IMG/VR virus record: IMGVR_UViG_3300029922_000038
Span: 1 to 64,000 of that record
Source: a virus
Length of the DNA stretch: 64,000 nt
Strand: one strand, 5' to 3'
The notes under the pieces were generated by a model. The model searched no databases, was not told the origin of the DNA, and saw nothing but the letters and a program-made list of their open reading frames with translations. A program made the position numbers and the translations under genes. The stretch's first letter is position 1. Every line of letters starts with the position of its first letter. Of the stretch, positions 20,851 through 34,335 are shown piece by piece.

Positions 20851-21075
20851 ATGGAAGATAAAATTAATGATCTTATTGCTTTATTAGGAATTTTTCATGC
20901 AAAAACAAATTTATTTTTGTTATCTGAAAAAGAAATCCTACCTTTGTTACAGGAATTAGTACATTATGAAGTTACTTTAATTATGGTTCAAGAAGTATTA
21001 GAAAGAATTGAACTATTTGATTATGAAGAACTTCAACCAGTAGAAATAGAAGAGAGCTTCTACGAAGGTTACTAA
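20851..21075 (+). CDS. hypothetical acidic protein
   Basis: Track ORF 20842..21075; ATG 20851. Confidence 0.7.
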   Translation: MEDKINDLIALLGIFHAKTNLFLLSEKEILPLLQELVHYEVTLIMVQEVLERIELFDYEELQPVEIEESFYEGY

Positions 21076-21116
21076 GAACAACTATTTTGGATAGTTGGTT
21101 CACTAAAAACTAATGA

Positions 21117-21689
21117 ATGTTTTATAACGTAGAAAAGTTTGCAATGCTCTTAGTAAAGCATAAACTGACTCCAAATCAGTTTTTCTTTGCCTATCTTTTA
21201 CATGAAGGCAGGTATGATTTACTAAAGAAGTATTGTAACACAGAAACTGGAGTTGGTCTCTTTAAAGCTGAAGATATAAAAGTTTTAGAAGAAAGAGGAT
21301 ATATAGTAAATATCAATCAGATAGAGAATGGGTATCAACCTGCTTATATTGATTGTTTTATTTGTACCTCTACTTTTAAAGAACTTGCATTTTTAGAATA
21401 TGAAGAACCACTCCAGGAATTAATGGCAGTATACCCACATATATTGTCTATAGATGGTAGAAATTTTCCAGCTAAAAGTATTGACCCTGCTATACTTGGC
21501 CCTATTTATTTAAAGAATATCAAAGCAGATGTTTATAAGCATAATGAAGTTATAGAGTTAACTAAATATGCAGTAAAAAATAATCTTATTATGACAGGAA
21601 TAGATAAATATGTAAAATCAAGTATGTGGGAAGGTATTAAAGAAGCAAAAGAAAAGAATGTAGAATTTAATGGAATAATAGATATTTAA
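21117..21689 (+). CDS. putative replication initiator / helicase-loader-like protein
   Basis: wHTH-like N-terminus, YP motif, position upstream of helicase (function inferred). Confidence 0.6.
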   Translation: MFYNVEKFAMLLVKHKLTPNQFFFAYLLHEGRYDLLKKYCNTETGVGLFKAEDIKVLEERGYIVNINQIENGYQPAYIDCFICTSTFKELAFLEYEEPLQELMAVYPHILSIDGRNFPAKSIDPAILGPIYLKNIKADVYKHNEVIELTKYAVKNNLIMTGIDKYVKSSMWEGIKEAKEKNVEFNGIIDI

Positions 21690-21690
21690 A

Positions 21691-21933
21691 ATGAGTAAAA
21701 ATGTAAGAATAACAATTAATGATGAAAATGAAGAATATTTCACTAAATCTTTAACAGAAGAAGGATATGAGTGGACTAATTCTCAACTAATTAATCATTT
21801 TTTAACAGCTTTAAGAAAAATAGAAGAATCATCTAAAATGCAAATAGGAGCATTTGCTATTGCTTTAGCTAATCCAGATTATAAAGATGCTTTAAAATAT
21901 TTCTTAAATTCATCATATGAAAAAGCAGGATAA
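21691..21933 (+). CDS. hypothetical protein (possible ribbon-helix-helix)
   Basis: NVRITI strand then two helices. Confidence 0.65.
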   Translation: MSKNVRITINDENEEYFTKSLTEEGYEWTNSQLINHFLTALRKIEESSKMQIGAFAIALANPDYKDALKYFLNSSYEKAG

Positions 21934-21936
21934 TAA

Positions 21937-22995
21937 ATGTCATATCAAGAATTAAGAAAGAAAATAGATGAAGGAATAGAAGGTAAGAATACTGGAATAC
22001 CTTTATGTCTTCCTAAAACTTCTAAATTTATAACAGGTATTCAAAAACAGATATATTTATTATTAGGTGCAACTACGGGAGTTGGGAAAACCGCCCTCAT
22101 AGATTATTTATATGTATTAAAGCCTTATGAATGGTGGTATGAAAATAAAGATAAAACTGATATTAAACTTCATTGGATTTATAATTCAATGGAGAGAAAT
22201 AAAGTTTATAAGTTAGCTAAATGGACTTGTGTAAGGCTCTATGAGAAGTATGGAATACTTATGGATGTCTCTGAACTTTTAGGCTGGGAGAAGACAGATA
22301 GAGTAGTAGAAATCAAAGATGCTCTTGATGAGTGTGAAGTCTATTTTACAGAGATGTTAAAACATATAGATATTTATGAAAATGCTGAAAATCCTACAGG
22401 TATTTGGAATAAACTTATTGCTTATGCTCTTAATAATGGACATGTAGAACAAGTATCAGAATTTAAAAAAGAATATAGAGAGAATGACCCTAATCTTATT
22501 ACTTTTATAGTTAATGACCACATTGGTAAACTTAAAAGAGAAAGAGGTTTTACAGTTAAAGAAACTATAGATAAGCATTCTGAATATATGGGATTAGCAA
22601 GGGATTTTTATAAATTTAATCCAATAGACATATCTCAATTTAATAGAGGGATTGCCGATAGTGAAAGATTTAAACAAGGAGATTTATCTCCAAGATTGGA
22701 AGATTTTAAAGAATCTGGGGCTCCGAGTGAGAATTCGGACATTATTTTAGCTTTATTTGATCCTGTTAGATATAAAGTTTTTGATTATAAAGGATATGAT
22801 ATTAGAAAATTTATGGATCAAAAAACAGCTTCAAGTAGGTACAGAGCCCTTTTTGTGCTAAAAAACACTTATGGGGAAGCTGATGTGAGTGTTTCTCTTA
22901 ATTTCATTGGAGAATGTGGAATATTCAAAGAAATTAAAAAAGCAGAAGAACTTAATAAAAATCCTGAAATGTACAAGGAATACACAATGGTATGA
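21937..22995 (+). CDS. DnaB-like replicative helicase
   Basis: GATTGVGKT, SME, DHIG, SQFNR, DFKESG, LKN. Confidence 0.9.
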   Translation: MSYQELRKKIDEGIEGKNTGIPLCLPKTSKFITGIQKQIYLLLGATTGVGKTALIDYLYVLKPYEWWYENKDKTDIKLHWIYNSMERNKVYKLAKWTCVRLYEKYGILMDVSELLGWEKTDRVVEIKDALDECEVYFTEMLKHIDIYENAENPTGIWNKLIAYALNNGHVEQVSEFKKEYRENDPNLITFIVNDHIGKLKRERGFTVKETIDKHSEYMGLARDFYKFNPIDISQFNRGIADSERFKQGDLSPRLEDFKESGAPSENSDIILALFDPVRYKVFDYKGYDIRKFMDQKTASSRYRALFVLKNTYGEADVSVSLNFIGECGIFKEIKKAEELNKNPEMYKEYTMV

Positions 22996-23243
22996 AACAG
23001 TTGACAAAAGAATTATTTGATAATATAGAAAAGATAATTGATAATTCTTCTCTATGTGTAAATACAGAATTACCATATGAAGGAATGATGATTAATGAAG
23101 ATGAAACAATATTTGAAAAAGAGAAATTATTTAACAAATTAAAAGAAGCAATTAATCAACATCAATTTAAACAAAAACAATTTTTTGAAGAAAAATCAAA
23201 TAAAATAAAAGACATATTGGCAAAATCACACAACGAATTATAA
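22992..23243 (+). CDS. hypothetical protein
   Basis: ATGA overlap. Confidence 0.65.
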   Translation: MKQLTKELFDNIEKIIDNSSLCVNTELPYEGMMINEDETIFEKEKLFNKLKEAINQHQFKQKQFFEEKSNKIKDILAKSHNEL

Positions 23244-23381
23244 TTATGGCAAAACATAGAGATAATAAACCAAGAATACATAGATATAAGGTAAGTGCAT
23301 ATAAGAAACTTATTAACAATAGAAGGTTAGAATGGTGCATAGATCAATTAAAAGAATATATAGAACGTAATAAAAATAAAA

Positions 23382-24032
23382 ATGAGTGAAATAAAAAGAG
23401 ACTATTATAAAGTCTTAGAGTTAGGGCAATCTGGTAAAGGAAAAACCTATTCTTTTGTTAATATGAATAGAGATACAACAGGCTTTTTGAATATTGAAAA
23501 TAAGCCTCTTCCTTTTAAGGGGACTTTTAAATATCATGATAGACCATTAAAATTCCAAGATGCTTTTGCCACTTTAATAGAATATGGTAAAAATCCTGAA
23601 ATAGATGCTATAGTAGTAGATTCTCAATCTGCATATTTTGATATGGTATTAAAAGAAGCAAGATTAACAAAAAAGAATTTTGATATTTGGAATATGTATA
23701 ATGATGAAATTGCAAAATTTCAAGATATGATTAAAAGAATACCAAAAGAAATATTTGTAACTGGACACTACGAACTTTTAAATATAGAAAGTTCTTGGGA
23801 AAAAAGAGCTAAAGTCCAAGGAAAAGCACTTGAAGGAATGGTGGAAAAAGATTATACTATGGTTGTATATGCAGATAATAAACTTGTAGATAAGAAATTT
23901 CAATACTTCTTTAATCTTGCAATGGAGGGAGGTTCTGCTAAATGCCCGCCAGATATATTTGGAGAAGGAATATATCAAATACCAAATGATTCTAAATATA
24001 TCTTAGAAAAGATAATTGAATTTACAAAGTAA
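23382..24032 (+). CDS. AAA-family ATPase (AAA_24/Sak4-like)
   Basis: GQSGKGKT, IENKPLPF, IVVDS, SAKCP. Confidence 0.88.
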   Translation: MSEIKRDYYKVLELGQSGKGKTYSFVNMNRDTTGFLNIENKPLPFKGTFKYHDRPLKFQDAFATLIEYGKNPEIDAIVVDSQSAYFDMVLKEARLTKKNFDIWNMYNDEIAKFQDMIKRIPKEIFVTGHYELLNIESSWEKRAKVQGKALEGMVEKDYTMVVYADNKLVDKKFQYFFNLAMEGGSAKCPPDIFGEGIYQIPNDSKYILEKIIEFTK

Positions 24033-24046
24033 TTAATTAATTAAAA

Positions 24047-24631
24047 ATGAATAGTGGAGCAAAGCCATTTAGTATGGCAAATTATACTATTGCTAAGAAA
24101 ACAAATAGCAAAGTAAGTACAACAAGTACTAAAAAACTAAAACCTTATCAACTAAGGGCAAATATTGAGAAATCAATGTTTCAATTTTCTGATAGTTCAT
24201 ATGAAACTCTAAATTTAGAGCACAATGGGCTCACAATAGCATATGATAGTGAGACTGTATGTTTATGTATAGCATCAGAAAAAGATTCTAAATTCTACAA
24301 ACATAAAGGTACTTCTAATAAAGGCAGGTATTTTAAGAGCACTGCTTTAACAGACCTACTTAAAGAAAGAGGGCTTATAGTTGCAGATAAAAAAATCAAC
24401 TATTTCTCTTTAAGTAATGAAGGAATTGATGGTAATTTTGTTATCTATGAAATGTCAAATGTAGATATAGAAAAAGATAGTAATAAAACTATTGGGTATG
24501 TAGCTGCTGCTGAAGTAGAGAATACAGAATTAACAGAAGCAGAACTTGAAGCAAGACAAGATATGGAAGAAGCCTATGCTATGGAAGAAAGGGAAGATGA
24601 AGAAGATGAGTTTGAAGAAGAAATTGCATAA
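24047..24631 (+). CDS. hypothetical protein with acidic tail
   Basis: 194 aa; E/D-rich C-terminus. Confidence 0.8.
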   Translation: MNSGAKPFSMANYTIAKKTNSKVSTTSTKKLKPYQLRANIEKSMFQFSDSSYETLNLEHNGLTIAYDSETVCLCIASEKDSKFYKHKGTSNKGRYFKSTALTDLLKERGLIVADKKINYFSLSNEGIDGNFVIYEMSNVDIEKDSNKTIGYVAAAEVENTELTEAELEARQDMEEAYAMEEREDEEDEFEEEIA

Positions 24632-24651
24632 TTTTAATAAATAATATATAA

Positions 24652-25311
24652 ATGTTTCAAGTAAATAAAGATACTGCTGGTGCAACTGGCGGAAATTTTC
24701 TACACGGTGGTATTAATGATAATATTGAATTTATTGGCTTTAGTAGGGCTAATACAAAAGAGGATGGTAGTGGAGTAGAATATACTGGTCTTACATTTAA
24801 TAATGGGGATCAAACTTATACTGCAAAATTATGGGATATTGATGAAGATAAAGTAAAAGCTAATCTTGTTAATTATCCAAGGGTTCATACAAGAGAAATT
24901 AAAAATCCTGATGGTACAGTTAAGTATGCTAAAGGAATAGATGTAACCCCTGATGCAGCAGTTGACCTTGCCAATAGGGAATATTCTTCTACTTTAGTAG
25001 CTATTCTTGATAAATTTATGCCAGCAGAGGATATAATTATTAATCCTACAAGCTATGAAGATCTTGTAAATCAAGCTAATACCCTTCTTGGTAAGAAAGC
25101 AATAGGGGTTAAACTTAGATTGAAGCTTGTATATAAGAATAATTACTTAACTTTGCCAAGGTTTGGATTTATAGAACTTATGAGTGTTAATCCACCTAAA
25201 GTAGTAGTAAATCCTCAATATGATGTAATTACTAAAAGTGTAGCAGAACCTACTACTGGTCATCCAGCAGATGCTGTCCCAGTTGCTCAAAATTCAGATC
25301 TTCCTTTTTAA
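24652..25311 (+). CDS. putative single-stranded DNA-binding protein
   Basis: C-terminal DLPF tail; between ATPase and primase. Confidence 0.7.
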   Translation: MFQVNKDTAGATGGNFLHGGINDNIEFIGFSRANTKEDGSGVEYTGLTFNNGDQTYTAKLWDIDEDKVKANLVNYPRVHTREIKNPDGTVKYAKGIDVTPDAAVDLANREYSSTLVAILDKFMPAEDIIINPTSYEDLVNQANTLLGKKAIGVKLRLKLVYKNNYLTLPRFGFIELMSVNPPKVVVNPQYDVITKSVAEPTTGHPADAVPVAQNSDLPF

Positions 25312-25321
25312 ATAATAAACC

Positions 25322-26317
25322 ATGATAAATGTCTTTCCTAAGATAACAAAGTCTTTTATTCTTAATAGAATTACAGAAATAGAAATAATGGAGAGATATT
25401 TAGGTTTAAAAGTAGATACTAATAAACTATATAAATCTCCACTTAGAGTTGATAAACACCCCACATGTAAATATACATATTGGAATGGTAGACTTTATTT
25501 TAAAGATTTTAATGGTAGTTTTAATGGTGATTGTTTTAATGTTGTACAAAAAATACATAGTACTAATTTCTTAGATTCTTTATATATTATAGCAAACGAC
25601 TTTAATATATTAAAGAAACCTAAGAAAGAATTAGTAGAATATATATTTGATAAACCACCTGTTCAGGAAAAACTATCAATAGGTATTAAATCACAACCAT
25701 TTACAGATATAGATAAACAATACTGGGATTCTTATTTTATATCAGAACAATCATTAGAGAAATATTTTGTATATAGTTGTAAACAAGTATTCATTGGAGA
25801 GAATATTATTTATAATTATAGCAAGAAAGACCCAGCTTATGCTTATTACTTTGGTAATGGCAACTATAAAATTTATTTTCCATTTAGAAAGAAAGAAGAA
25901 AAAAGATTTATTAATAACTGTAATAATACTATTATTCAAGGGTATTGGCAATTGCCAAAGGAGAATAACTTATTAATTATTACTAAGTCTTATAAAGATG
26001 TTATATGTTTAAGTGAATTTAATATTCATTCAATTGCTCCTCAAAGTGAAACATGTGGGCTAACACATGGATTAATACGAGAGTTATCTCAAAGATTTAA
26101 AACTATTATAAGTTTATATGACTTTGATTTAACAGGAATAAGAGGGGCAAATAAATTATATAAAGAAGAAAATATAAAACCTATCTTTTTTACCAATGGG
26201 AGATTTAATTCTATAGATTATCAGGCAAAAGACTTTTCAGATTATTTGCATGATAATGGATTTTTAAAAACAAAAGAGTTAGTAGATGGTCTACTAACAC
26301 AAAAACTAATTAATTAA
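25322..26317 (+). CDS. DNA primase (crAss DnaG-like, TOPRIM)
   Basis: SPLRxDxxP, FKDF, GDCF, ITKSYKDV, YDFDxxG, KDFSD. Confidence 0.9.
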   Translation: MINVFPKITKSFILNRITEIEIMERYLGLKVDTNKLYKSPLRVDKHPTCKYTYWNGRLYFKDFNGSFNGDCFNVVQKIHSTNFLDSLYIIANDFNILKKPKKELVEYIFDKPPVQEKLSIGIKSQPFTDIDKQYWDSYFISEQSLEKYFVYSCKQVFIGENIIYNYSKKDPAYAYYFGNGNYKIYFPFRKKEEKRFINNCNNTIIQGYWQLPKENNLLIITKSYKDVICLSEFNIHSIAPQSETCGLTHGLIRELSQRFKTIISLYDFDLTGIRGANKLYKEENIKPIFFTNGRFNSIDYQAKDFSDYLHDNGFLKTKELVDGLLTQKLIN

Positions 26318-26323
26318 TTTTTT

Positions 26324-26884
26324 ATGAGTTCTCGTAAAATTACTGTGTACTCTACACAGACTAATAAAAAGAGTGAAGTAAATACAGATGTAGCAACATG
26401 GGCAGAACTGCAAGCAGTAATGACAGATGCTGGTATTACCCATGAAGGTCTAACTGCAACAGAAAACAGGACAAAAACTAATTTGTCTTTAGGAGCAGCA
26501 GTTCTGCCAGAAGGAGAATTTGTTCTATTTCTTTCGCCAAGTACTAAAATTAAGAGTGGTACTTCTTGGAGAGATATGTCTTATAATGACATCAGGAAAC
26601 ACGCTACTTCAATTGGTGTATCTGGTTTAGGTACAACCGCAGAAATTGGTCAAAGGATTGAAAACTGGGAGAAAACTAACAAGAATACATCATCTTCAAA
26701 TGATATTCTTAATACTAAATTTCCTACAGTAGCTGCTAAACTTGATGCTTTTATTAAGCATACAGATAAACAATTTGCAGAAGTATCAGAAGCTGTTAAT
26801 AATAGTGATTATTTTGATAATACTCCTTTTGGAGAAGATGACAATTCTAATCTTGCAAATGAAGCTGCAAGTCTTGGATTGTAA
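26324..26884 (+). CDS. ubiquitin-like protein precursor (Ubl-Gly79 plus SAP/HeH-like extension)
   Basis: Beta-grasp-like pattern ending LPEGEFVLFLSPSTKIKSG; adjacent to E2/JAB/E1 genes. Confidence 0.72.
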   Translation: MSSRKITVYSTQTNKKSEVNTDVATWAELQAVMTDAGITHEGLTATENRTKTNLSLGAAVLPEGEFVLFLSPSTKIKSGTSWRDMSYNDIRKHATSIGVSGLGTTAEIGQRIENWEKTNKNTSSSNDILNTKFPTVAAKLDAFIKHTDKQFAEVSEAVNNSDYFDNTPFGEDDNSNLANEAASLGL

Positions 26885-26905
26885 TAAGTTTCATATTTTT
26901 AATAG

Positions 26906-26940
26906 TAAAATAGGGGTAGAAATGCCCCTATTTTATTTTA
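26906..26940 (+). terminator. intrinsic terminator after Ubl gene
   Basis: TAAAATAGGGGTA-GAAA-TGCCCCTATTTTA plus T-rich tail. Confidence 0.85.
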
Positions 26941-26951
26941 ATATTTAATAT

Positions 26952-28496
26952 ATGTATGAATATAAAGCAGGAGATATAGTAAAAATAATAAATGGGAAAG
27001 GAAGTGATTTAGGTAGTATGCTAAATGGTAAAGAGGTTATATTAGATACTCAACCAGATGATGGCTATAGATTAGGTACAGATAGTAAATATAATCAAAA
27101 ATTAGTATTTTCTTATTTTGATAGGGATGGAGATTTAGTAGATTCATTATATTTTAGAGATGAAGATATAGAACTTGTAGGTTGGACATATATACCAGAT
27201 TATGAATTAATAAAAGATAAAAGGTTTAAATTAATAGAAACTGATTTAAATGAACAATTTGTTAATCCTAATTATATAAATAGTGAAGAAGTTTATAAGC
27301 ATGGACTTATAGAGTTAGATTCAAGAGGATATTTTTGTAGTTTTGGAGGATCTATGATTGATTTACAAATTAGAGTATCTTCAAATTCAGATAGCCCGAA
27401 TTATAATATTTTTAATGAACTTCAATATAAAGTAGAAATAAGATTAGATAATACTATTAAGATATTTTATAAAGAGCCTCAAGTAATATTTGATATTTCT
27501 ATTATAGAAGAATATAAAACTATATTTAATGATTATTTTAAAGAAGATTGTGAAATTAGAAAAATAAATAATATAGAATATGAATTTGTAATTCATTTTC
27601 CTGATATAATTATAAAAAATGAGTTAGATAAAACTCATCCAATTAAAGACTTATATGTATTTTTTAATCTTAAGGTATTACAAAATAATAGATTTGTCTT
27701 TATGAGAGAAAATCAATCAGATTATTATTTAAGTGGTTGTAGAGGAACAGTAACAGATAGAGAATATGCTGTAAAATATCAACATTCTCATTTATCTTCT
27801 GGTTATCATAATTCTAAATTTTGTTTAGGGACTGGCCCCATTTTAACTAATATTGCTGCATTTAATATGCGGAATGATAGTTTATTATTTGAAAAAATAA
27901 TGTTGGATATTATAGATTATATAAGTGTTGAAAGTATAGAAGGTACTCCATATATTGAATTTAAATGTGTTTATACCCCAAGAAATCAACAAAGAATTAA
28001 TATAAGTGATTTACAATTACGACAAGAATATCTAAATTTCTTATCTTATTATGATAATTTACCTGTATCTATTAGTAATTTAGAAATAAAAGTAGATGAA
28101 AATAATCCTGAATTTATTAAACAGGTATCTGCTATTACTAATTTTATAAATGGTCAGGAATCAGAAATACAAATTAGTAATAGCGATAAGAATAAATTAA
28201 TGTTAATATTTAAAAATGAAGAAGTTAGACTTAAAATTATTAAAGAAGAAAAAACAGATGAGCAAAATAAAGAGCAGCTACAAAGAGTTGCAAATACAAG
28301 AGTCCTCCAATATATCGCAAAAAAACTTAGTGAAGACTTATCAGACAAAGCCATTAGTGGAATTACCAGGAAGAGCGAAGCTGGTTATTTCACAGGAACT
28401 TTGGTTGAAGATACATCAACTTCACTTGAATGTAGGGAAAATAGAGTGGTCAGGAGTATTGTTTCTAAAAGTGGAAGGAAACTTACTAAATTATAA
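26952..28496 (+). CDS. prokaryotic E2/UBC-like protein
   Basis: YQHSHL-x8-FCLG (Cys291) resembles the HPN...CL E2 active site; gene context. Confidence 0.68.
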   Translation: MYEYKAGDIVKIINGKGSDLGSMLNGKEVILDTQPDDGYRLGTDSKYNQKLVFSYFDRDGDLVDSLYFRDEDIELVGWTYIPDYELIKDKRFKLIETDLNEQFVNPNYINSEEVYKHGLIELDSRGYFCSFGGSMIDLQIRVSSNSDSPNYNIFNELQYKVEIRLDNTIKIFYKEPQVIFDISIIEEYKTIFNDYFKEDCEIRKINNIEYEFVIHFPDIIIKNELDKTHPIKDLYVFFNLKVLQNNRFVFMRENQSDYYLSGCRGTVTDREYAVKYQHSHLSSGYHNSKFCLGTGPILTNIAAFNMRNDSLLFEKIMLDIIDYISVESIEGTPYIEFKCVYTPRNQQRINISDLQLRQEYLNFLSYYDNLPVSISNLEIKVDENNPEFIKQVSAITNFINGQESEIQISNSDKNKLMLIFKNEEVRLKIIKEEKTDEQNKEQLQRVANTRVLQYIAKKLSEDLSDKAISGITRKSEAGYFTGTLVEDTSTSLECRENRVVRSIVSKSGRKLTKL

Positions 28497-28659
28497 AGAT
28501 ATGGAGTTTACTGCTGTAGATATGTATCTTATGGATATAGGAGATGCGACAAGTACAGAGTTTGATTTCCAAGATACAGCTTGGCTAAATGCTTTTGATG
28601 AAAACCCAGATTTAATGGGATTAAAAATGGGATTATGTCACAGTCATCATTCAATGGCT
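28258..28659 (+). CDS. JAB/MPN metalloprotease, exon 1
   Basis: EWSGVLF catalytic Glu; GLCHSHHSMA; start ATG 28258 (28216 possible). Confidence 0.88.
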
Positions 28660-28688
28660 AAATATTAGTTATTTCAATAAATATTGTT

Positions 28689-28696
28689 TATATTTG
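28689..28696 (+). promoter_or_regulatory. -7 promoter element for intron endonuclease
   Basis: TATATTTG upstream of ATG 28718. Confidence 0.55.
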
Positions 28697-28717
28697 TACA
28701 TAATAAAATGTATAAAT

Positions 28718-29545
28718 ATGAAATTACTTTCAAAACAAGAAAAAGAAAAAATTGCAGAATTATATGATTCTGGATTAAATGCAGTAGAGATTAAAAGAGA
28801 GATGGGTTTAAAAAATCATCAACAAGTATATAATGTATTAAAATATTTACCTCAATATCAAGCATATAAATATGGTAGAGGGGATAATAGAAAATATACA
28901 CTAAATGAAGATTATTTTAAAATTATTAATTCAGAAGAAAAAGCATATATATTTGGTTTTATATGTGCAGATGGACATGTAGCTTTTAATAGACTAAGAA
29001 TATTAGTAGCAACAAAAGATAAAGATATACTTGAAAAAATTAGAGTATGTTTAGAGTCTTCTGATGAAGTAGAAGATGTAATTAGAGAATCCAGATTTTC
29101 TTATGGAAAAAGATTATTCTATCATTCGCAAATAGCATTTAATTCAATTAAACTTGCAAAAGATTTGTTAAATTTAGGATTAGATAGTAGAAAAACTTAT
29201 TCTTTATCATCAAAAATATTAGAAAATATTCCTCTTAATTATATGAAGGATTTTTTAAGAGGATATTTTGATGGAGATGGGAATGTTATGTATGGGAATA
29301 AATATAGTTCTGGTAAGAAATATCTTATTCAGATAGCTGGGAATAAAGAGTTTTTAGAAAATTCTTTTGGAAAATATTTTCCAACAACTAATAAGTATTA
29401 TTTTTTCCCTAAATCTATACAAACTTGGTGTTATAAACTATCATCTAAAGAAAATGTGAATAAATTTTTAGAATATATTTACAAAGATTCTACAATTTTT
29501 CTTAATAGAAAGTATAATATTTATAAAAATAATGTGGCCATTTAA
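28718..29545 (+). CDS. LAGLIDADG homing endonuclease (two motifs, N-terminal HTH)
   Basis: AYIFGFICADG and FLRGYFDGDG. Confidence 0.93.
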   Translation: MKLLSKQEKEKIAELYDSGLNAVEIKREMGLKNHQQVYNVLKYLPQYQAYKYGRGDNRKYTLNEDYFKIINSEEKAYIFGFICADGHVAFNRLRILVATKDKDILEKIRVCLESSDEVEDVIRESRFSYGKRLFYHSQIAFNSIKLAKDLLNLGLDSRKTYSLSSKILENIPLNYMKDFLRGYFDGDGNVMYGNKYSSGKKYLIQIAGNKEFLENSFGKYFPTTNKYYFFPKSIQTWCYKLSSKENVNKFLEYIYKDSTIFLNRKYNIYKNNVAI

Positions 29546-29805
29546 AACACATTGAATTGCTGGAAACCTAAGTCTATTTATAGATATGGCAATCAGCAGC
29601 TAAGATTAATCTTATGATTAATAAAGTTCAGAGACTATCGAAAACACAGTTTAAAAACTGGAAGTTAGTAGAGTACATCCAAGTGGATGGAAGCGGTGTG
29701 ACTTTACACTTAGTAAAGTATGATATAGTCCGATACCACGTAACTACTGAAGTTACTATACCGAAAGGGTGGAAGTTGTCTAACGAACAACAGGTAAATT
29801 TATTG

Positions 29806-30603
29806 ACATTTTTTTCAGGTACAGATATAGGGCATTTACATTCTCAATCTCCAGATCATAATTACTTTCTATCTTTAATTGTTAATTTTGCGTGTGAACC
29901 AATTGCTAAAGTAGCTTTTGCTTCTACGCGAAAATTAGCTTCATCATCTTCTTTTAGTTTTAGAGATGATGAAGGGAATATACAATTTCAAGAAGATAAT
30001 AGTAATAAAGAAGAAGATATTACAGTAGTATTTAATTGTGATGTATTTGTAGAAATAGAACCTAAACTTCTTGATAGAATAGATGAATTAAAAGAAGCTA
30101 AGAAAAATAGGTATAAACAATTTACAAATAATTGGAATACTAAAAAACAAAATTATATTCATACTGATTTTGATTGGGAAAAATGGAAAGCTGAACAAAA
30201 TGGAGAAGGAATAGCTACTGTTTGGGATACTGAAGGTAAGAGATTAAATGCTACTGATATTCAAACGGAGTTTGATTTTAGTAATCATGAAAAACTTATT
30301 GCAGATTCACAAATAGAATATTTTACTAAATGTTTACTTGCTGATACTTATAATGATTATGAGAAAACAGTAGAATTATTAGTAGAAGATAGAAATGCTT
30401 GTGTAGATACAAATGCTGAAGCAAGACAATGTTGTATGGCCATGCACATGATGTATGATTCTGTTTTTCATGATGATACTTATTTTACTGAAGTCATGAC
30501 TAAAGTTATAGCTCTATTAGGTAAATATAAAAGTGATTTTACAACAAAGATGATTTCTATCATTAAACAAGAATTAAAAGAATATGTCAGCACAGAATTA
30601 TGA
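29806..30603 (+). CDS. JAB/MPN metalloprotease, exon 2
   Basis: TFFSGTD completes HxH-x7-S-x2-D; FLSLIVN; spliced protein about 399 aa. Confidence 0.88.
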   Translation, partial: TFFSGTDIGHLHSQSPDHNYFLSLIVNFACEPIAKVAFASTRKLASSSSFSFRDDEGNIQFQEDNSNKEEDITVVFNCDVFVEIEPKLLDRIDELKEAKKNRYKQFTNNWNTKKQNYIHTDFDWEKWKAEQNGEGIATVWDTEGKRLNATDIQTEFDFSNHEKLIADSQIEYFTKCLLADTYNDYEKTVELLVEDRNACVDTNAEARQCCMAMHMMYDSVFHDDTYFTEVMTKVIALLGKYKSDFTTKMISIIKQELKEYVSTEL

Positions 30604-31291
30604 TAGATTTAAAGATGCTCCTTGGTTCAAACCCCTTAAAGTAATTGTAGGGGGTGCTGGAGGTATAGGTTCCAATCTTATTTATCTCTTAGCTAAAATG
30701 CCATATCGAATTTATATATATGATTTTGATGTAGTAGAAGCACATAATAGTTGTCAAATGCTTGGAGGTTTTACTAATATAGGTAAGTTAAAAACAAGAG
30801 CAGTAAGAGAACTTGCACAAAAATTATCAGATAATTATGGTATTAGAGAGTTTGGAGAATATACTTCAGAAGGAATGGTAGACGATATTATGTTTGCTGG
30901 ATTTGATAATATGAAAGCAAGGAAGTTAATGTATGATAACTGGAAACAATATCAATTAACTAAAGTAGAAGAACCTGCTATAGAAGAACCTAAGAAAGAG
31001 GTTAATTTATTTGTAGATATGAGATTAGCAGCAGAAACAGGTATTATATATTTTATAGACTCTAAAGAAAGAATGGAAAGATATGAAGCTGAATTATTTG
31101 ATGATTCAGAAGTTCCAGATGAACCATGTACTTTTAGAGCTACTGCTCATGCTTCTATGTTAATAGCTTCTTATGCTGTTGCAGGGTTAGTTAATAAGGT
31201 AACTAATGTTGAATGGGGAATAGAGGCAAGAGAAGTACCATTTAAACTTAATTTTGAATTACCATTATTTAATATGAAAACAATTGTATGA
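30584..31291 (+). CDS. ThiF/MoeB/E1-family adenylyltransferase
   Basis: GAGGIGS, YDFDVVEAHN, K, FDNMKAR, DMR, candidate catalytic Cys182. Confidence 0.92.
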   Translation: MSAQNYDRFKDAPWFKPLKVIVGGAGGIGSNLIYLLAKMPYRIYIYDFDVVEAHNSCQMLGGFTNIGKLKTRAVRELAQKLSDNYGIREFGEYTSEGMVDDIMFAGFDNMKARKLMYDNWKQYQLTKVEEPAIEEPKKEVNLFVDMRLAAETGIIYFIDSKERMERYEAELFDDSEVPDEPCTFRATAHASMLIASYAVAGLVNKVTNVEWGIEAREVPFKLNFELPLFNMKTIV

Positions 31292-32316
31292 TAGAGCAAT
31301 TACATATAGAAAATAATTTTGGATTTATATTACAAAATCATGGCATTAAAGAAAGTAATTCTTATTGTGAATATGTTCCTTTTTATATATTAAAGCAGAA
31401 TACAGATTCTTTAATAAAATTAGAACAAGAGAATAGGCAAGGTATAGAAGAAATATATAATAATTTATATCATGAGTTTCAATTATGTCAAGATCAAACT
31501 TTTTCTCAATATTATACTATTGCTGAATTACCTGCTTTATTTCAAGAAAATGATATTATTAGTCATAGATTTAGATTAAGAAATTATGAAGAAGGAATAT
31601 ATTCTCCTTTTAATTTAGAAATAGAAGAAAATATAATTAGGCAATATGAAGATACTAAAAAATTTATATCTTTATTTTCATTAGTAATTCCTATTAAATA
31701 TGTACCTTATGTACAAATATGTTTAATGTTAGAAGAACCTATTGATTTAAGAGTATATGAATTTTGGATTAAAGAAGATTTTGATATTAAAGATTCTATT
31801 TATACTAATTATAGAAAACTATATAGAAAGTATTTATTACCTGATTTAAAAGAGAATAATGTTCCTATTGTAGTTAAAAAAGATATAGATAAAGAACTTT
31901 ATTTCTTTCCTGAAATGCCTAAATTTAAAAGAACTTCTGATTATGATAAATATGTAGAAGAACTTGTTAAAGATAGTATTATTAAATTAAGGATAGATAA
32001 TGGTATACAAGGTATTAATAATGATTTTCGTGTAACTTTTGAAAGTAATGATTATATATTAGAAGAAGGTACATTAAATGTTAATGGTACTACTTGGAGA
32101 ACTTTTAATAATTCTGGAGATAATTTAGTATCACAAATAATGAGTACTGATACTTATCAACCGTTAACTGCTGCAAGATTAGATTCATTTATATCAAATT
32201 TAACTTTTAATTCAAATAGTTCATTAGGTAGTAATATGCCCCCTGAAGAAAATCTAAATCATATTAATAATGAATTATATCAAGAAGCATTAAGGAGTAT
32301 GGAAACTTCTGAATAA
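31288..32316 (+). CDS. hypothetical protein coupled to E1 gene
   Basis: ATGA overlap, 342 aa. Confidence 0.8.
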   Translation: MIEQLHIENNFGFILQNHGIKESNSYCEYVPFYILKQNTDSLIKLEQENRQGIEEIYNNLYHEFQLCQDQTFSQYYTIAELPALFQENDIISHRFRLRNYEEGIYSPFNLEIEENIIRQYEDTKKFISLFSLVIPIKYVPYVQICLMLEEPIDLRVYEFWIKEDFDIKDSIYTNYRKLYRKYLLPDLKENNVPIVVKKDIDKELYFFPEMPKFKRTSDYDKYVEELVKDSIIKLRIDNGIQGINNDFRVTFESNDYILEEGTLNVNGTTWRTFNNSGDNLVSQIMSTDTYQPLTAARLDSFISNLTFNSNSSLGSNMPPEENLNHINNELYQEALRSMETSE

Positions 32317-32541
32317 GAAGAACAAGAAATAGAAAATGGTGCTCTTGAAGAAGAATGGTATGGAATAGGATTTGAATTAGGAGATGAATTTTAAAAATTA
32401 AATATTATGAGAATTATAAAATATTTTAGTCATAGTTTTAAAAGTTCTATAAAACATAGAATTGGGTCTAATAAAACTAATACTGAACATCAGTATTATA
32501 ATATTTGGACTAATAAAACATGGCTTGAAAAACAATAACAG

Positions 32542-33159
32542 ATGGAATTAATAACAAGTATTGTTATTCCTAAATACATAAGACAAATACAAGTATCTAA
32601 ACATAGAAGAGCTACTTATTATAAAGTAGGAGAAAAGAAAATACCTAAAAAGTATGATACTTTCCCATTTGAAAAGTTTGGTAATACTTTGTTTTTATGT
32701 AATCCAGGAACTAAAACAAGAGTAATTAAAAATAGTAAATCTGTTGGTACTCCAAGATATTTAGCTATAAATGGTCAAAAATTCTATAGTGGTTTTGCTT
32801 CTGAACATGAAAGAATGGCAATTGTATATGGTCTAAAAGATTATTATGAAGAAATAATAACAGCTTTAGCACCAATAACTGTATTTCCAATATATATTAA
32901 ATATATATATTTTGCTAAAACTGAAATAGGTGATAGTATAGCAGATTTAGATAATTTATCTTACTGCTATACTAAAACCTTTCAAGATTGGTTAACTTTA
33001 ACTAAGAAGATACCAGAAGATAATACAAGATATATCAGAAGTTTTCAACCAGAAGTATTTCCAGTAGAAACTGATGAAGAAAGGAGATTAATTATATTAA
33101 TATATAAGTATAATCCTAATATTACAATTAAAGAATTAAAGAAATTAAATTTATATTAA
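32542..33159 (+). CDS. RusA-like Holliday junction resolvase
   Basis: DLDNL...K..QD......IPEDN. Confidence 0.75.
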   Translation: MELITSIVIPKYIRQIQVSKHRRATYYKVGEKKIPKKYDTFPFEKFGNTLFLCNPGTKTRVIKNSKSVGTPRYLAINGQKFYSGFASEHERMAIVYGLKDYYEEIITALAPITVFPIYIKYIYFAKTEIGDSIADLDNLSYCYTKTFQDWLTLTKKIPEDNTRYIRSFQPEVFPVETDEERRLIILIYKYNPNITIKELKKLNLY

Positions 33160-33378
33160 ATGAAAAGAGAAACATTAATAAGAGCTAATGAAGTAGATAA
33201 TAAACTTAGAAGATGGGAAGCCATATTAGAAGGATGCACAAGAAAAGGTAGTCTTTCAGTAAATGACATTCATATTAATAATGTAACTTTAAATTCAATT
33301 GAATTATTTGCTATAGCAGATTTAGCTAAAGATAAAATTGCTCAACTTGAAATATTATTAACTGCTATAAAAGATTAA
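33160..33378 (+). CDS. hypothetical protein
   Basis: Packed ORF. Confidence 0.7.
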   Translation: MKRETLIRANEVDNKLRRWEAILEGCTRKGSLSVNDIHINNVTLNSIELFAIADLAKDKIAQLEILLTAIKD

Positions 33379-33381
33379 CAT

Positions 33382-34335
33382 ATGAATTATTTTGAAGTAA
33401 AAGCAATTAGCAATAGTGCTTTAAATGCACTTGACCCAGAGATGGGTGGAAGTCCTGCTAAATTTAAAAAATATATGGATGGAGTATATGAAAGTAAAGA
33501 ATCCCTTTCTTTGGAGAGGGGTTCTTTATTACATTCATGGTTAGAACATCAGGATAATTTTATAGTAGCAGACTTAGATAAACCTACTGGGCAAATGGGG
33601 GCTTATGTAGAGAGTTATTATAAGAATTTGATAGCTGGATATGATTCTGTATCTGCAAGTGAAATAGCATATGCAGAAGTAGGATTTAAGAGAGATAAAA
33701 TAGAAACAGTATTAAAGAAATTTACTGAACCTGAAAATGCTGAATATTTTCATTTTTTAGAAGAAGCTACTGGTAAAAATGTATTAACAAAAGCTACTAA
33801 AGAAATATTAGAGGCTTGTAAACAGTCTATACAAAATAATAAGATAGCTTGGGAATTAATTTGTAAACCTTGGCCACATAAAGAGAAAGAATTATATTGG
33901 TGTGATAATTTAGAATTACAGAGAAAAGTTAAAATAGATCATTTAACTATAGATAATAATAAAGGTATTATATGGCTTACTGATTATAAAACTACTTCTA
34001 AATCAGCTTATAATTTTAAAGATACTTTAGATTATTGGAGATATTATAGACAATTAGAATATTATAAAGAGGCCATACTGTCAGTTGATTCTCATACATA
34101 TTTTGTAGAAGATGATATTAAAGATTATACAGTTATTTGCAATATAATAGTTTGTGAGACATTTGGAGATTTTAATACAGTTGTATATAATATAAATCAA
34201 TCTTACTTGGATAAAGGTAGAGAAGAATTAGATTCTCTATTACAAAGAGCTAAATGGCATATAGATAATGATATTTGGAATCAATCTAAAGAAGAATATC
34301 CTCAAGGTTATATTAGCCTTTCTTTCACTAAATAA
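33382..34335 (+). CDS. PD-(D/E)XK exonuclease (RecE/ExoVIII-like)
   Basis: AISNSAL, GSLLH, E, KIDHL, DYKTT, YYRQLEYY. Confidence 0.88.
   Translation: MNYFEVKAISNSALNALDPEMGGSPAKFKKYMDGVYESKESLSLERGSLLHSWLEHQDNFIVADLDKPTGQMGAYVESYYKNLIAGYDSVSASEIAYAEVGFKRDKIETVLKKFTEPENAEYFHFLEEATGKNVLTKATKEILEACKQSIQNNKIAWELICKPWPHKEKELYWCDNLELQRKVKIDHLTIDNNKGIIWLTDYKTTSKSAYNFKDTLDYWRYYRQLEYYKEAILSVDSHTYFVEDDIKDYTVICNIIVCETFGDFNTVVYNINQSYLDKGREELDSLLQRAKWHIDNDIWNQSKEEYPQGYISLSFTK

What the first reader, a model, noticed from the sequence alone, without database searches (positions are those of the whole stretch)
26324..26940. Ubl made as a precursor fused to a SAP/HeH-like domain and separated from its enzymes by a terminator
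Gly79 (26558-26560) is internal. It is followed by MSYNDIRKHATSIGVSGLGTTAEIGQRI, a SAP/HeH-like helix-loop-helix pattern, and an acidic tail. Inference: JAB cleavage is needed to expose the glycine and also frees a second, possibly nucleic-acid-binding, product. The terminator at 26906-26940 would give a molar excess of Ubl over enzymes.
Basis: partly seen in the sequence, partly recalled or inferred. Interest (0 to 1): 0.7.

Follow-up and report, generated by a model that had tools for sequence, protein, structure and literature searches.

The report
Ubiquitin-like precursor in crAss-like phage
A crAss-like phage makes its own ubiquitin-like tag as the front part of a longer protein that almost certainly has to be cut at one invariant glycine, and the gene carries its own conserved transcription stop signal; the cut itself has not been shown.

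Summary
ORF 26324-26884 (186 aa) has a confident ubiquitin-fold domain (residues 1-72), a flexible tail ending KIKSG79, then a helix-loop-helix, an acidic helical tail and a conserved C-terminal motif. A strong hairpin plus T-run lies at 26904-26937.

The family is large: 1491 cluster representatives at E<=0.001. It always lies in the order primase, Ubl, E2-like gene, JAMM protease, E1.

New evidence for a precursor:
- The glycine is kept in 154 of 156 and in 71 of 72 relatives.
- What follows it ranges from 1 to 206 residues. In 12 of 72 proteins it is only 1-4 residues.
- In one lineage the extension is a separate gene that starts 25 nt after a one-residue-capped Ubl.

A terminator-like site follows 54 of 72 Ubl genes, against 46 of 780 other genes in the same loci.

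The SAP/HeH reading has only lead-level support, and nucleic-acid binding is untested. Cleavage, conjugation and termination are inferred, not shown.

This scan has noted the same operon before in other crAss-like phage genomes. My literature searches found no paper describing it.

Verdict: a real feature, a new variant of a known kind (Ubl precursor processed by a JAMM protease).

The parts
26324..26884 (+). Whole ORF, 186 aa plus stop; a second in-frame TAA follows at 26885-26887. Member of phrog_15560 (function unknown).
26324..26560 (+). Ubiquitin-like beta-grasp domain with its flexible tail, residues 1-79. It ends in the near-invariant K77-S78-G79; the Gly79 codon is 26558-26560.
   Evidence: AF2 pLDDT is 95-98 over residues 1-70. 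VIA-align gives Z 9.4, rmsd 1.9 A, 70 residues aligned to ubiquitin-like chains. Foldseek top rows are ubiquitin, SUMO and ISG15, best E 1.3e-3.
26561..26683 (+). Residues 80-120: a short variable linker (TSWRD), then a helix, an extended loop and a helix (SAP/HeH-like).
   Evidence: AF2 gives H87-96 and H105 onward.
26684..26881 (+). Residues 121-186: acidic helical tail (pI 4.1). It ends in the family's C-terminal motif L..EA..L.G-hydrophobic; here this is LANEAASLGL, residues 177-186, nt 26852-26881.
26904..26937 (+). Terminator-like hairpin (15 pairs, loop of 4) running into a T-rich stretch. It lies in the 67-nt gap before the next gene.
   Evidence: conservation in relatives
26952..28496 (+). 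Context: 514-aa protein. Its middle part (about residues 160-366) is conserved in relatives and has lead-level likeness to prokaryotic E2 family D.
28258..28668 (+). Context: first part of the JAMM/JAB protease (EWSG ... HSH). It is cut off by an inserted LAGLIDADG gene (28694-29545). The second part lies within 29614-30603. The start at 28258 is my reading of the ORF that opens at 28216.
30584..31291 (+). Context: minimal ThiF-type E1, 235 aa, with a GxGxxGS loop and Cys182, which is invariant in 68 of 68 distinct relatives.

Best explanation
The gene encodes a two-part precursor. Residues 1-79 are a ubiquitin-like modifier. Its reactive end, Gly79, is blocked by 107 further residues.

Inferred mechanism:
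1. The phage's own JAMM protease, encoded two genes downstream, cuts after Gly79.
2. The minimal E1 (Cys182) then adenylates the freed glycine and passes the Ubl on, probably through the E2-like 514-aa protein, to unknown targets.
3. The cut also releases a 107-residue helical protein. It has a SAP/HeH-like helix-loop-helix, an acidic linker and a conserved C-terminal docking-type motif. It acts separately and is made 1:1 with the Ubl.
4. The hairpin plus T-run after the gene is a conserved transcription stop or attenuator. It uncouples expression of the Ubl gene from the enzyme genes.

Shown here: the fold, the conservation, the gene order, the natural short and split forms, and conservation of the hairpin. 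Inferred: the cut, who makes it, activation, conjugation, the role of the second product, and termination.
For: Fold:
- AF2 with 150 relatives gives pLDDT 87.2.
- All 50 listed VIA-align rows are ubiquitin-fold chains aligned to model residues 1 to about 78. The best is Z 9.4, rmsd 1.9 A, 70 residues, and 21 chains reach Z>=8.

Invariant glycine:
- 154 of 156 sequences keep it.
- In loci found through the JAB gene, not through the Ubl, 71 of 72 distinct Ubl proteins have G at the tail position. The 72nd reads SKG one place on.

Variable cap:
- The extension after the glycine is 1-4 aa in 12 of 72 proteins, 21-23 aa in 3, 31-80 aa in 18, and over 80 aa in 39.
- All short forms that I read end at TAA except L037, which ends at TAG.
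- A further 77-aa form ending KSG-W came from the protein database.

Natural split at the glycine:
- A profile of 18 extensions was searched against all 5136 ORFs of 30 aa or more in 89 loci. Apart from Ubl ORFs it hit only the 82-aa ORF that starts 25-26 nt after the one-residue-capped Ubl of L024, L025 and L027. E was 3.8e-7, covering profile positions 6-59 of 59.
- phmmer gave 7e-7.
- A profile of extension starts aligned residue 3 of that ORF to profile position 3, E 0.0032.

Enzymes:
- An E1 lies downstream of JAB in 75 of 75 loci with room for it. Primase lies upstream in 76 of 82, and a relative of the 514-aa protein is found in 71 of 82.
- The JAMM residues E, HxH, S and D are invariant in 56 of 56 sequences.
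- E1 Cys182 is invariant in 68 of 68.

Complex prediction, made on relative L008's JAB residues 25-215 and Ubl residues 1-105, not on the window's proteins:
- Verdict: weak support.
- Score 0.51 (runs 0.51, 0.67, 0.51); best of 3 controls 0.02.
- The mark was reached by 58 of 80 solved complexes and 2 of 110 mismatched pairs. At 0.60 or under it was reached by only 7 of those 80, and by both mismatches that passed.
- The runs agree in at least 42% of contacts, and the partner's pLDDT is at least 69.
- My own alignments were used. JAMM-ubiquitin complexes are solved, so the pass may come from memory.

Terminator:
- A terminator-like site lies within 110 nt of the stop in 45 of 72 Ubl genes with a perfect stem, or 54 of 72 with one mismatch allowed.
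- The figures for other + strand genes of the same loci are 42 of 780 and 46 of 780.
- The hairpin sequences are unrelated to each other.

Precedent: BilA Gly97 is capped by Ala98 and is thought to need its JAB partner BilC (PMC10557695, passages read).
Against: - No experiment or read-level data show a cut, a conjugate or a transcript end.
- The extension is conserved, with a helix-loop-helix in the window's subfamily and a C-terminal motif in 103 of 153 members. AF2 models it confidently. An uncleaved multi-domain protein would look the same.
- Statistical support for a split gene comes from one lineage only: 3 loci with 2 distinct Ubl sequences. The small ORFs after the other short-capped Ubl genes show no detectable likeness to extensions.
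- Only 2 of the 12 short-capped Ubl genes have a terminator-like site directly after them.
- No sequence model of a Ubl family matches. Pfam, NCBIfam and PADLOC give nothing for the ORF.
- Foldseek E-values do not pass 0.001.
- The intact JAB proteins of relatives reach Pfam Prok-JAB only below its cut-off (E 0.0065 and 0.01).
- The window's own JAB gene is interrupted, so it needs splicing to work.
- Whether this hairpin stops the polymerase that reads these genes is unknown.
Confidence: 0.6

Rival explanations
1. It is a precursor, but the extension is only a removable lock. It keeps the Ubl inert until the JAB protease is made, and here also spliced. It is then degraded and has no function of its own, and the helix-loop-helix does not bind nucleic acid.
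For: Extensions range from 1 to 206 residues, and 12 of 72 proteins do without one. The helix-loop-helix motif is found in only 11 of 72 JAB-anchored proteins. Residues 80-120 are near neutral. SAP likeness is sub-threshold.
Against: A C-terminal motif is kept in 103 of 153 members, against 7.4% of interior windows. One lineage keeps the extension as a gene of its own. In 8 short-capped lineages (10 of the 12 proteins) a small ORF was read right behind the Ubl gene. A mere lock would not be kept in this way.
Confidence: 0.17
2. It is never cut. It is a multi-domain adaptor with an N-terminal ubiquitin-like domain, as in UBL-UBA shuttle proteins. K-S-G is a hinge or a recognition loop.
For: Most members (57 of 72) have extensions longer than 30 residues. 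AF2 models the window's whole protein with confidence. No cut has been shown.
Against: The glycine is invariant while the part behind it varies from 1 to 206 residues. Forms exist that end one residue after the glycine. There is a split gene that breaks exactly there. The gene is strictly linked to an E1, which needs a free carboxyl end, and to a JAMM protease.
Confidence: 0.08
3. It is cut, but the Ubl is a sulfur carrier of the ThiS/MoaD type. The E1 makes a thiocarboxylate for a small-molecule or nucleic-acid thio-modification, and no protein is tagged.
For: The E1 is minimal (235 aa). Its best named matches are ThiF and MoeB models, all far below their cut-offs. MoaD chains are among the fold matches. 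JAMM enzymes are known to free MoaD from MoaD-MoaE fusions (PMC4443979 and PMC8832034; I saw only the abstracts in search listings).
Against: An E2-like domain is suggested for the neighbouring 514-aa protein. Prok-E2_D is carried by 82% of one structure-neighbour cluster and 14% of one feature-neighbour cluster (lead only). The Pfam scans of the module's proteins returned no rhodanese, cysteine desulfurase or ThiG/MoaE family. The tail ends in a single Gly rather than the Gly-Gly that I recall for ThiS and MoaD.
Confidence: 0.1
4. This rival concerns the hairpin only. It is not a terminator that sets stoichiometry. It is a 3' stabilising or processing structure, or simply the border between two timing classes of genes.
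For: Only sequence patterns were tested. The stem is A/U-rich outside its G-C core. The polymerase that reads these genes is not known to me.
Against: It has the classic form of a G-C-rich stem followed by a T-run. That form is kept after 54 of 72 Ubl genes with unrelated sequences, against 46 of 780 other genes. In short-capped loci it moves behind the small downstream ORF (read by eye).
Confidence: 0.15

Closest known systems
BilA/BilC of bacterial Bil anti-phage operons (Chambers et al. preprint, PMC10557695; passages read)
   Same: A ubiquitin-fold protein whose reactive glycine is capped. A JAB protease, an E1 and an E2 are encoded beside it. Processing is proposed to expose the glycine.
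   Different: BilA's cap is one residue; here it is 107 residues with conserved parts. This one is in a phage replication block, not a host defence operon. Only the E1 gives partial hits to Bil or CBASS models (BilD 3.5e-6, E1-E2 1.6e-6). The Ubl, the JAB parts and the 514-aa protein give none.
Caldiarchaeum ubiquitin precursor cut by CsRpn11 (PMC6043591; abstract seen in a search listing only)
   Same: A JAMM protease processes a Ubl precursor encoded in the same operon.
   Different: That system is archaeal, and I recall a short cap. No second conserved polypeptide is described in what I saw.
Eukaryotic ubiquitin fused to ribosomal proteins (UBA52 and RPS27A type; recalled, not from a call)
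   Same: A ubiquitin fold sits at the N-terminus and is followed directly by a second functional protein. Cutting at the glycine yields both in equal amounts.
   Different: The second product here is a helical acidic protein with no known family. The protease would be a JAMM encoded next door. There is no sequence relation.
Lambda and T1 tail assembly protein I with the JAB domain of protein K (Iyer et al. 2006, PMC1779556; passages read)
   Same: A phage Ubl domain is joined to a small C-terminal domain, and cleavage by a JAB at the last glycine of the Ubl domain is predicted.
   Different: That system has no E1 and lies in a tail module with a glycine-rich linker. No Pfam family of that kind matched here. 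Cleavage is unproven there too, in the passages I read.
MoaD-MoaE fusions cut by JAMM enzymes (HvJAMM1, PMC4443979; DRJAMM, PMC8832034; abstracts in listings only)
   Same: A linear fusion of a beta-grasp protein to a partner protein is cut by a JAMM enzyme.
   Different: Those act in sulfur-carrier metabolism, and the partner is an enzyme subunit.
PRTRC cassettes of plasmids
   Same: ThiF-type E1, JAB and a small Ubl occur together on a mobile element.
   Different: The E1 matches PRTRC_ThiF only at E 0.0034, 16.7 bits against a cut-off of 144.75. No other PRTRC model matched.

Membership tests
Ubiquitin-like modifier made as a precursor | beta-grasp (ubiquitin) fold | tested here: met
   AF2 pLDDT is 95-98 over residues 1-70. 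VIA-align gives Z 9.4, rmsd 1.9 A, 70 aligned, and all 50 listed rows are ubiquitin-fold chains. Foldseek top rows are Ub, SUMO and ISG15 with probability 1.00, but the best E is 1.3e-3.
Ubiquitin-like modifier made as a precursor | Flexible tail ending in a conserved glycine, followed by non-conserved residues | tested here: met
   G79 is kept in 154 of 156 and 71 of 72. The extension is 1 to 206 residues long. pLDDT dips over residues 71-80.
Ubiquitin-like modifier made as a precursor | Cognate E1 adenylating enzyme and processing protease | tested here: met
   E1 is present in 75 of 75 loci with room. The window's E1 matches Pfam ThiF at 1.1e-10. The JAMM residues are invariant in 56 of 56. 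Pfam Prok-JAB is matched only below its cut-off.
Ubiquitin-like modifier made as a precursor | Cleavage after the glycine and conjugation to targets | not testable with these tools
   Only indirect evidence exists: natural short-capped and split forms, and a weak complex prediction on a relative's pair.
SAP domain (Pfam PF02037) / HeH fold | Match to the SAP model above its cut-off | tested here: not met
   The window's protein has no SAP hit, even at E up to 5. 4 of 150 relatives match at E<=0.1, best 9.3e-4. Two checked examples (P0118, P0153) score 15 bits against a cut-off of 23.9, and their hits lie directly after KSG.
SAP domain (Pfam PF02037) / HeH fold | About 35 residues forming helix, extended loop, helix | tested here: inconclusive
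   AF2 gives H87-96, a loop and H105 onward. Of 10 Atlas structure neighbours of residues 80-130, 6 carry SAP or Rho_N, with TM by query 0.67-0.77 over 42-47 residues. Feature scores are at most 0.82, which is a lead only. The PDB fold searches were filled by the Ubl domain.
SAP domain (Pfam PF02037) / HeH fold | Binds nucleic acid | not testable with these tools
   Residues 80-120 have K+R 6, D+E 5 and pI 8.1. This gives no indication either way.
Intrinsic terminator | G-C-containing hairpin followed by a U-run, just after a stop codon | tested here: met
   kept after 54 of 72 Ubl genes against 46 of 780 other genes
Intrinsic terminator | Transcripts end there | tested here: inconclusive
   Only assembled contigs of RNA libraries were available. 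These cannot show ends or levels.
Bil / CBASS-type defence conjugation systems | Proteins match the systems' sequence models | tested here: not met
   PADLOC gives partial hits for the E1 only. The Ubl, the 514-aa protein and both JAB parts give none.
ThiS/MoaD sulfur carriers | Match to ThiS or MoaD models; Gly-Gly end; sulfur-transfer partners nearby | tested here: not met
   The ORF has no Pfam or NCBIfam hit. Its tail is K-S-G. The Pfam scans of the module's proteins returned no rhodanese or ThiG/MoaE family. MoaD does appear among the fold matches, so the fold itself does not exclude this chemistry.
Lambda-type tail assembly protein I | Match to its family model; tail-module context | tested here: not met
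   No such Pfam family appears for the ORF or among the 25 most frequent families of 150 relatives. The context here is primase and replication genes.

The most novel reading that the evidence does not exclude
crAss-like phages, including the Bacteroides gut phages related to crAss001, run their own ubiquitin-like tagging system from inside the replication module. Its modifier is made as a two-in-one precursor. The cut at the invariant glycine releases the tag and, in equal amount, a second conserved helical protein. That protein carries a SAP-like head and a portable C-terminal docking motif, and the same motif was also seen on two small membrane-anchored proteins of the same module in relatives. 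The second protein would steer or regulate tagging, for instance as a substrate adaptor at the replisome or on DNA. This would be a phage counterpart of the eukaryotic ubiquitin-ribosomal protein fusions.
Probability: 0.3. Interest if true: 0.8.

Novelty: new variant of a known kind. Interest (0 to 1): 0.62.

Why it matters
Ubiquitin-like tagging in the phage world has so far been studied as a bacterial defence against phages. Here the phage side carries a full kit, and it does so across a very large group that includes abundant gut phages: at least 530 JAB relatives in IMG/VR and 1491 Ubl cluster representatives. Three results turn "hypothetical protein" into a testable processing model:
- The modifier is a capped precursor.
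- The cap can be a conserved second protein or a separate gene.
- The gene has its own conserved stop signal.

The model gives a precise cut site and a predicted Ser-Gly remnant on target lysines after trypsin digestion. Relatives of crAss001 that grow on Bacteroides make the test feasible.

Tried and rejected
Searches that gave nothing useful:
- Pfam, NCBIfam and PADLOC gave no family for the ORF.
- phmmer of residues 80-125 against PDB sequences gave only TniQ at E 0.43 or worse, which is chance.
- The family profile against PDB sequences gave no ubiquitin. It gave weak hits (E 0.028-0.12) of the helical tail to Legionella Lpg2149, which I take as compositional.
- The JAB profile against PDB sequences had CSN5 as best hit, at only E 0.1.
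- A word-index search for proteins shorter than 102 aa with the window's protein found none. Short forms came only from the JAB-anchored loci and from a search with L007's protein.
- A C-terminal-motif profile was too weak. It hit 15 Ubl ORFs at E<=10, only 6 of them below 1e-3, and none of the small ORFs behind short-capped Ubl genes.
- A profile of extension starts matched L018's small ORF only at E 9.6, which is chance. Fission is therefore supported for one lineage only.
- BLASTP of L024's small ORF against L045 aligned only 19 residues, E 0.002.
- Rfam found no family in 26000-31000 apart from two chance-level rows. One was STnc400, at 26.8 bits against a gathering score of 80, lying over the hairpin.

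RNA libraries:
- Four peat metatranscriptome runs, held as assembled contigs, were laid on 21000-34000.
- Contigs of X1, X2 and X3 lie on the primase gene and on the Ubl ORF. They reach 26733, 26865 and 26816.
- None of the listed pieces of X1-X3 lies on 27076-27943, and none crosses the hairpin.
- Contigs cannot show ends, strand or level. DNA may be present in such libraries, and the stops are not at one place. I draw nothing from this.

Literature:
- Searches for crAssphage + ubiquitin-like (3 papers), Crassvirales + ubiquitin (4), crAss-like + JAB (5), crAss-like + ThiF (0) and two wider term sets found no paper describing this module. I judged this by titles and abstracts.
- In one of these papers (PMC13011352) I checked the passage, and it was only a reference to Hor et al..
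- Subscription papers and supplementary annotation tables, for example those of the crAss-like phage surveys, could not be seen. They may name these genes.
Full report
WHAT IS THERE

The window is part of an AT-rich crAss-like phage. ORF 26324-26884 (+, 186 aa) follows the primase gene by 6 nt and ends in TAATAA. Gly79 is codon GGT at 26558-26560. After a 67-nt gap the next gene starts at 26952.

In that gap lies a hairpin at 26904-26937: 15 pairs, 4 of them G-C, a loop of 4, running into a T-rich stretch. It folds at -20 kcal/mol, z -4.70, and none of 200 shuffles folds as well.

THE PROTEIN

No Pfam, NCBIfam or PADLOC family matches. The protein belongs to phrog_15560, function unknown (E 8e-17).

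A four-sequence alignment gave a poor model (pLDDT 66). With 150 relatives the AlphaFold2 model is confident (mean pLDDT 87.2, pTM 0.64). It shows:
- strands 4-10 and 15-21, helix 26-35, strands 43-47 and 66-72, which is the beta-grasp order, at pLDDT 95-98;
- a dip to about 70 over residues 71-80;
- helices 87-96, 105-130, 134-160 and 173-183.

The exhaustive structural search gave ubiquitin-fold chains in all 50 listed rows. They align to model residues 1 to about 78. The best is Z 9.4, rmsd 1.9 A, 70 residues, and 21 chains reach Z>=8. Foldseek also lists ubiquitin, SUMO, ISG15, NEDD8 and MoaD first, at probability 1.00, but no E-value passes 0.001.

Residues 121-186 are acidic (pI 4.1). 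Residues 80-120 are near neutral.

THE FAMILY

An exhaustive profile search found 1491 cluster representatives at E<=0.001 and 546 at E<=1e-10. Among the best 150 the match is always N-terminal, most often ending near profile positions 93-100. Their lengths are 73-293 aa.

In an alignment of 156 sequences, G79 is kept in 154 and K77 in 152. Position 78 is S in 125, A in 21 and G in 4. P62 is kept in 155 and W26 in 152.

Behind the glycine comes a gap-rich linker. Then, in the window's subfamily, come a conserved helix ([ML]-S-[FY]-K-E-L-R) and a second conserved stretch (N-W-T-Q-L-S-T..E-L-R in most; G-T-T-A-E-I-G-Q-R-I in the window).

GENE ORDER

- In three annotated phages (Flavobacterium phage FpV4, a Kehishuvirus of Bacteroides, and cr128_1) and six IMG/VR loci, the order primase, Ubl, relative of the 514-aa protein, unsplit JAB, E1 holds in 7 of 9. 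The other two are cut by contig ends.
- I then anchored on the JAB gene instead. At least 530 relatives exist in IMG/VR, and 80 loci were kept.
- A Ubl-core profile found a Ubl ORF on the same strand in 88 of 89 loci. The exception, L083, has only about 780 nt upstream of its JAB match.
- An E1 lies downstream of JAB in 75 of 75 loci with room. Primase lies upstream in 76 of 82. A relative of the 514-aa protein is detected in 71 of 82.
- The JAMM residues (E, HxH, S, D) are invariant in 56 of 56 JAB sequences.
- The E1 keeps its glycine loop, and Cys182 is invariant in 68 of 68.
- The intact JAB proteins of relatives reach Pfam Prok-JAB only below its cut-off (E 0.0065 and 0.01).
- The 514-aa protein's middle part has lead-level likeness to prokaryotic E2 family D.

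IS IT A PRECURSOR?

It passes, and more strongly than expected.

I dropped 3 partial hits (L059, L060, L063). The remaining 85 locus hits give 72 distinct proteins. Of these, 71 have G at the tail position: KSG 58, KAG 9, AAG 2, RSG 1, KLG 1. The 72nd, L005, reads SKG one place on.

The part after the glycine is 1-4 residues in 12 of 72 proteins (E, K, Y, H, NE, TSI, VNV, VNA, LINQ). It is 21-23 residues in 3, 31-80 in 18, and over 80 in 39. L007's ORF is 79 aa and ends KSG-E, then TAA, then a terminator-like hairpin. A 77-aa form ending KSG-W came from the protein collection. A one-residue cap is what the Bil preprint describes for BilA: Gly97 followed by Ala98 (PMC10557695, passage read).

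A NATURAL SPLIT AT THE GLYCINE

For 8 short-capped lineages (10 of the 12 proteins) a small ORF of 32-131 aa was read at or just after the Ubl stop. In L018, L021, L023 and L073 the stop and the start overlap as TAATG.

For one lineage (L024, L025, L027) this ORF is demonstrably the extension:
- A profile of 18 extensions of 50-80 aa was searched against all 5136 ORFs of 30 aa or more from 89 loci. It hit only Ubl ORFs and this 82-aa ORF. E was 3.8e-7, covering profile positions 6-59 of 59.
- phmmer against fused forms gave 7e-7.
- A profile of extension starts aligned the ORF's residue 3 with profile position 3, E 0.0032.
- BLASTP alone is weak (E 0.002 over 19 residues).

So the same two polypeptides exist fused in most phages and separate in some, and the break falls exactly at the glycine plus one residue. 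For the other short-capped lineages no likeness was detectable.

THE EXTENSION

It is not just a cap. Of 153 family members, 103 have glycine plus a hydrophobic residue within the last 8 residues, against 7.4% of interior 8-residue windows. Upstream of that glycine are a conserved L at -10, E at -7, A at -6 and a hydrophobic residue at -3. In 45 members the protein ends exactly one residue after that glycine. The window ends LANEAASLGL.

The simplest reading is a capped amphipathic docking helix.

The SAP/HeH idea has only lead-level support:
- The window's protein has no SAP hit, even at E up to 5.
- 4 of 150 relatives match at E<=0.1, best 9.3e-4. The two checked (P0118, P0153) match directly after KSG.
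- 6 of 10 Atlas structure neighbours of residues 80-130 carry SAP or Rho_N.

The first-helix motif occurs in 95 of 145 of the representative set but in only 11 of 72 JAB-anchored proteins. It is therefore a subfamily feature.

THE TERMINATOR

With my own pattern detector, a terminator-like site lies within 110 nt of the stop in 45 of 72 distinct Ubl genes with a perfect stem, or 54 of 72 with one mismatch allowed. For other greedily called + strand genes of the same loci the figures are 42 and 46 of 780.

The hairpin sequences are unrelated, so the feature is kept and the sequence is not. Only 2 of the 12 short-capped genes have it directly after them. By eye the hairpin lies behind the small downstream ORF in L017, L018, L023, L048, L073 and L081. 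This again treats Ubl plus extension as one unit. That the hairpin lowers enzyme expression is an inference.

COMPLEX PREDICTION

I used relative L008's own pair: JAB residues 25-215 (56-row alignment) and Ubl residues 1-105 (118 rows).
- Verdict: weak support.
- Score 0.51 (runs 0.51, 0.67, 0.51); best of 3 controls 0.02.
- The mark was reached by 58 of 80 solved complexes and 2 of 110 mismatched pairs. At 0.60 or under it was reached by only 7 of those 80, and by both mismatches that passed.
- The runs agree in at least 42% of contacts, and the partner's pLDDT is at least 69.
- My own alignments were used. JAMM-ubiquitin complexes are solved, so the pass may come from memory.

MECHANISM AND ODDS

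I put about 0.8 on a cut after Gly79 and about 0.65 on the phage JAB making it. I put 0.6 on the whole best explanation, which includes a separately acting second product and an attenuating terminator.

The rivals are a disposable lock peptide, an uncleaved adaptor, sulfur-carrier chemistry, and a non-terminating hairpin.

COMPARISON AND NOVELTY

It works like known capped Ubl precursors cut by JAMM enzymes (BilA/BilC; the Caldiarchaeum ubiquitin precursor). In architecture it resembles ubiquitin-ribosomal protein fusions and the predicted lambda TAPI/TAPK pair (PMC1779556, passages read). By sequence models it is not a member of the Bil, CBASS, ThiS/MoaD or TAPI families.

My searches found no paper on this module in crAss-like phages. 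Supplementary tables and subscription papers were not visible.

The scan itself has noted the operon before in other crAss-like genomes: 140 notes hold my search words, in at least 94 genomes, and the 8 that were shown describe this operon.

New here are the cap-length spectrum, the split gene at the glycine, the C-terminal motif, and the controlled count for the terminator.

Noticed in passing
L001:2790-2957 and L004:3874-4083: Two small ORFs (55 and 69 aa) lie upstream in the replication block of FpV4 and of an IMG/VR relative. Each has a hydrophobic, membrane-anchor-like stretch followed by the same C-terminal motif as the Ubl extension (L..EA.E...G/F). They were the only non-Ubl hits of the C-terminal-motif profile among 5136 ORFs (E 1.3e-5 and 0.011; sequences). 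The motif may be a portable docking peptide.
   Followed up: partly
window 28216-30603: The JAB gene is interrupted inside its HxH...S..D motif by a LAGLIDADG endonuclease gene (28694-29545; Pfam 3.9e-10). Rfam gave no group I intron match at E<=1 in 26000-31000. In the seven relatives that hold the JAB gene, the two parts match adjoining stretches, and a LAGLIDADG relative is detected in only 1 of 89 loci. Earlier notes of the scan treat this insertion.
   Followed up: partly
window 26952-28496: The middle part (residues 150-380) of the 514-aa protein between the Ubl and JAB genes has Atlas neighbours that carry Prok-E2_D: 82% of one structure-neighbour cluster and 14% of one feature-neighbour cluster scoring 0.93. 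RWD and E2-ntca clusters are also among the neighbours. Pfam itself finds nothing.
   Followed up: partly
L018, L021, L023, L073 (just after the Ubl stop): In phages whose Ubl has only a one-residue cap, a small ORF starts on the stop codon itself (TAATG). This suggests coupled translation of the two products.
   Followed up: partly
window 32301-32535: One contig of RNA-library run X2 skips 233 nt here and has 27 other letters in their place (tables 5 and 5c). It is probably a strain variant at the end of the 342-aa gene.
   Followed up: no
window 26885-26887: A second in-frame TAA directly follows the stop codon of the Ubl gene.
   Followed up: no
window 26857-26944: A weak Rfam row for the enterobacterial sRNA STnc400 (26.8 bits against a gathering score of 80, E 0.052) lies over the terminator hairpin. 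I take it as a hairpin-driven chance match.
   Followed up: no
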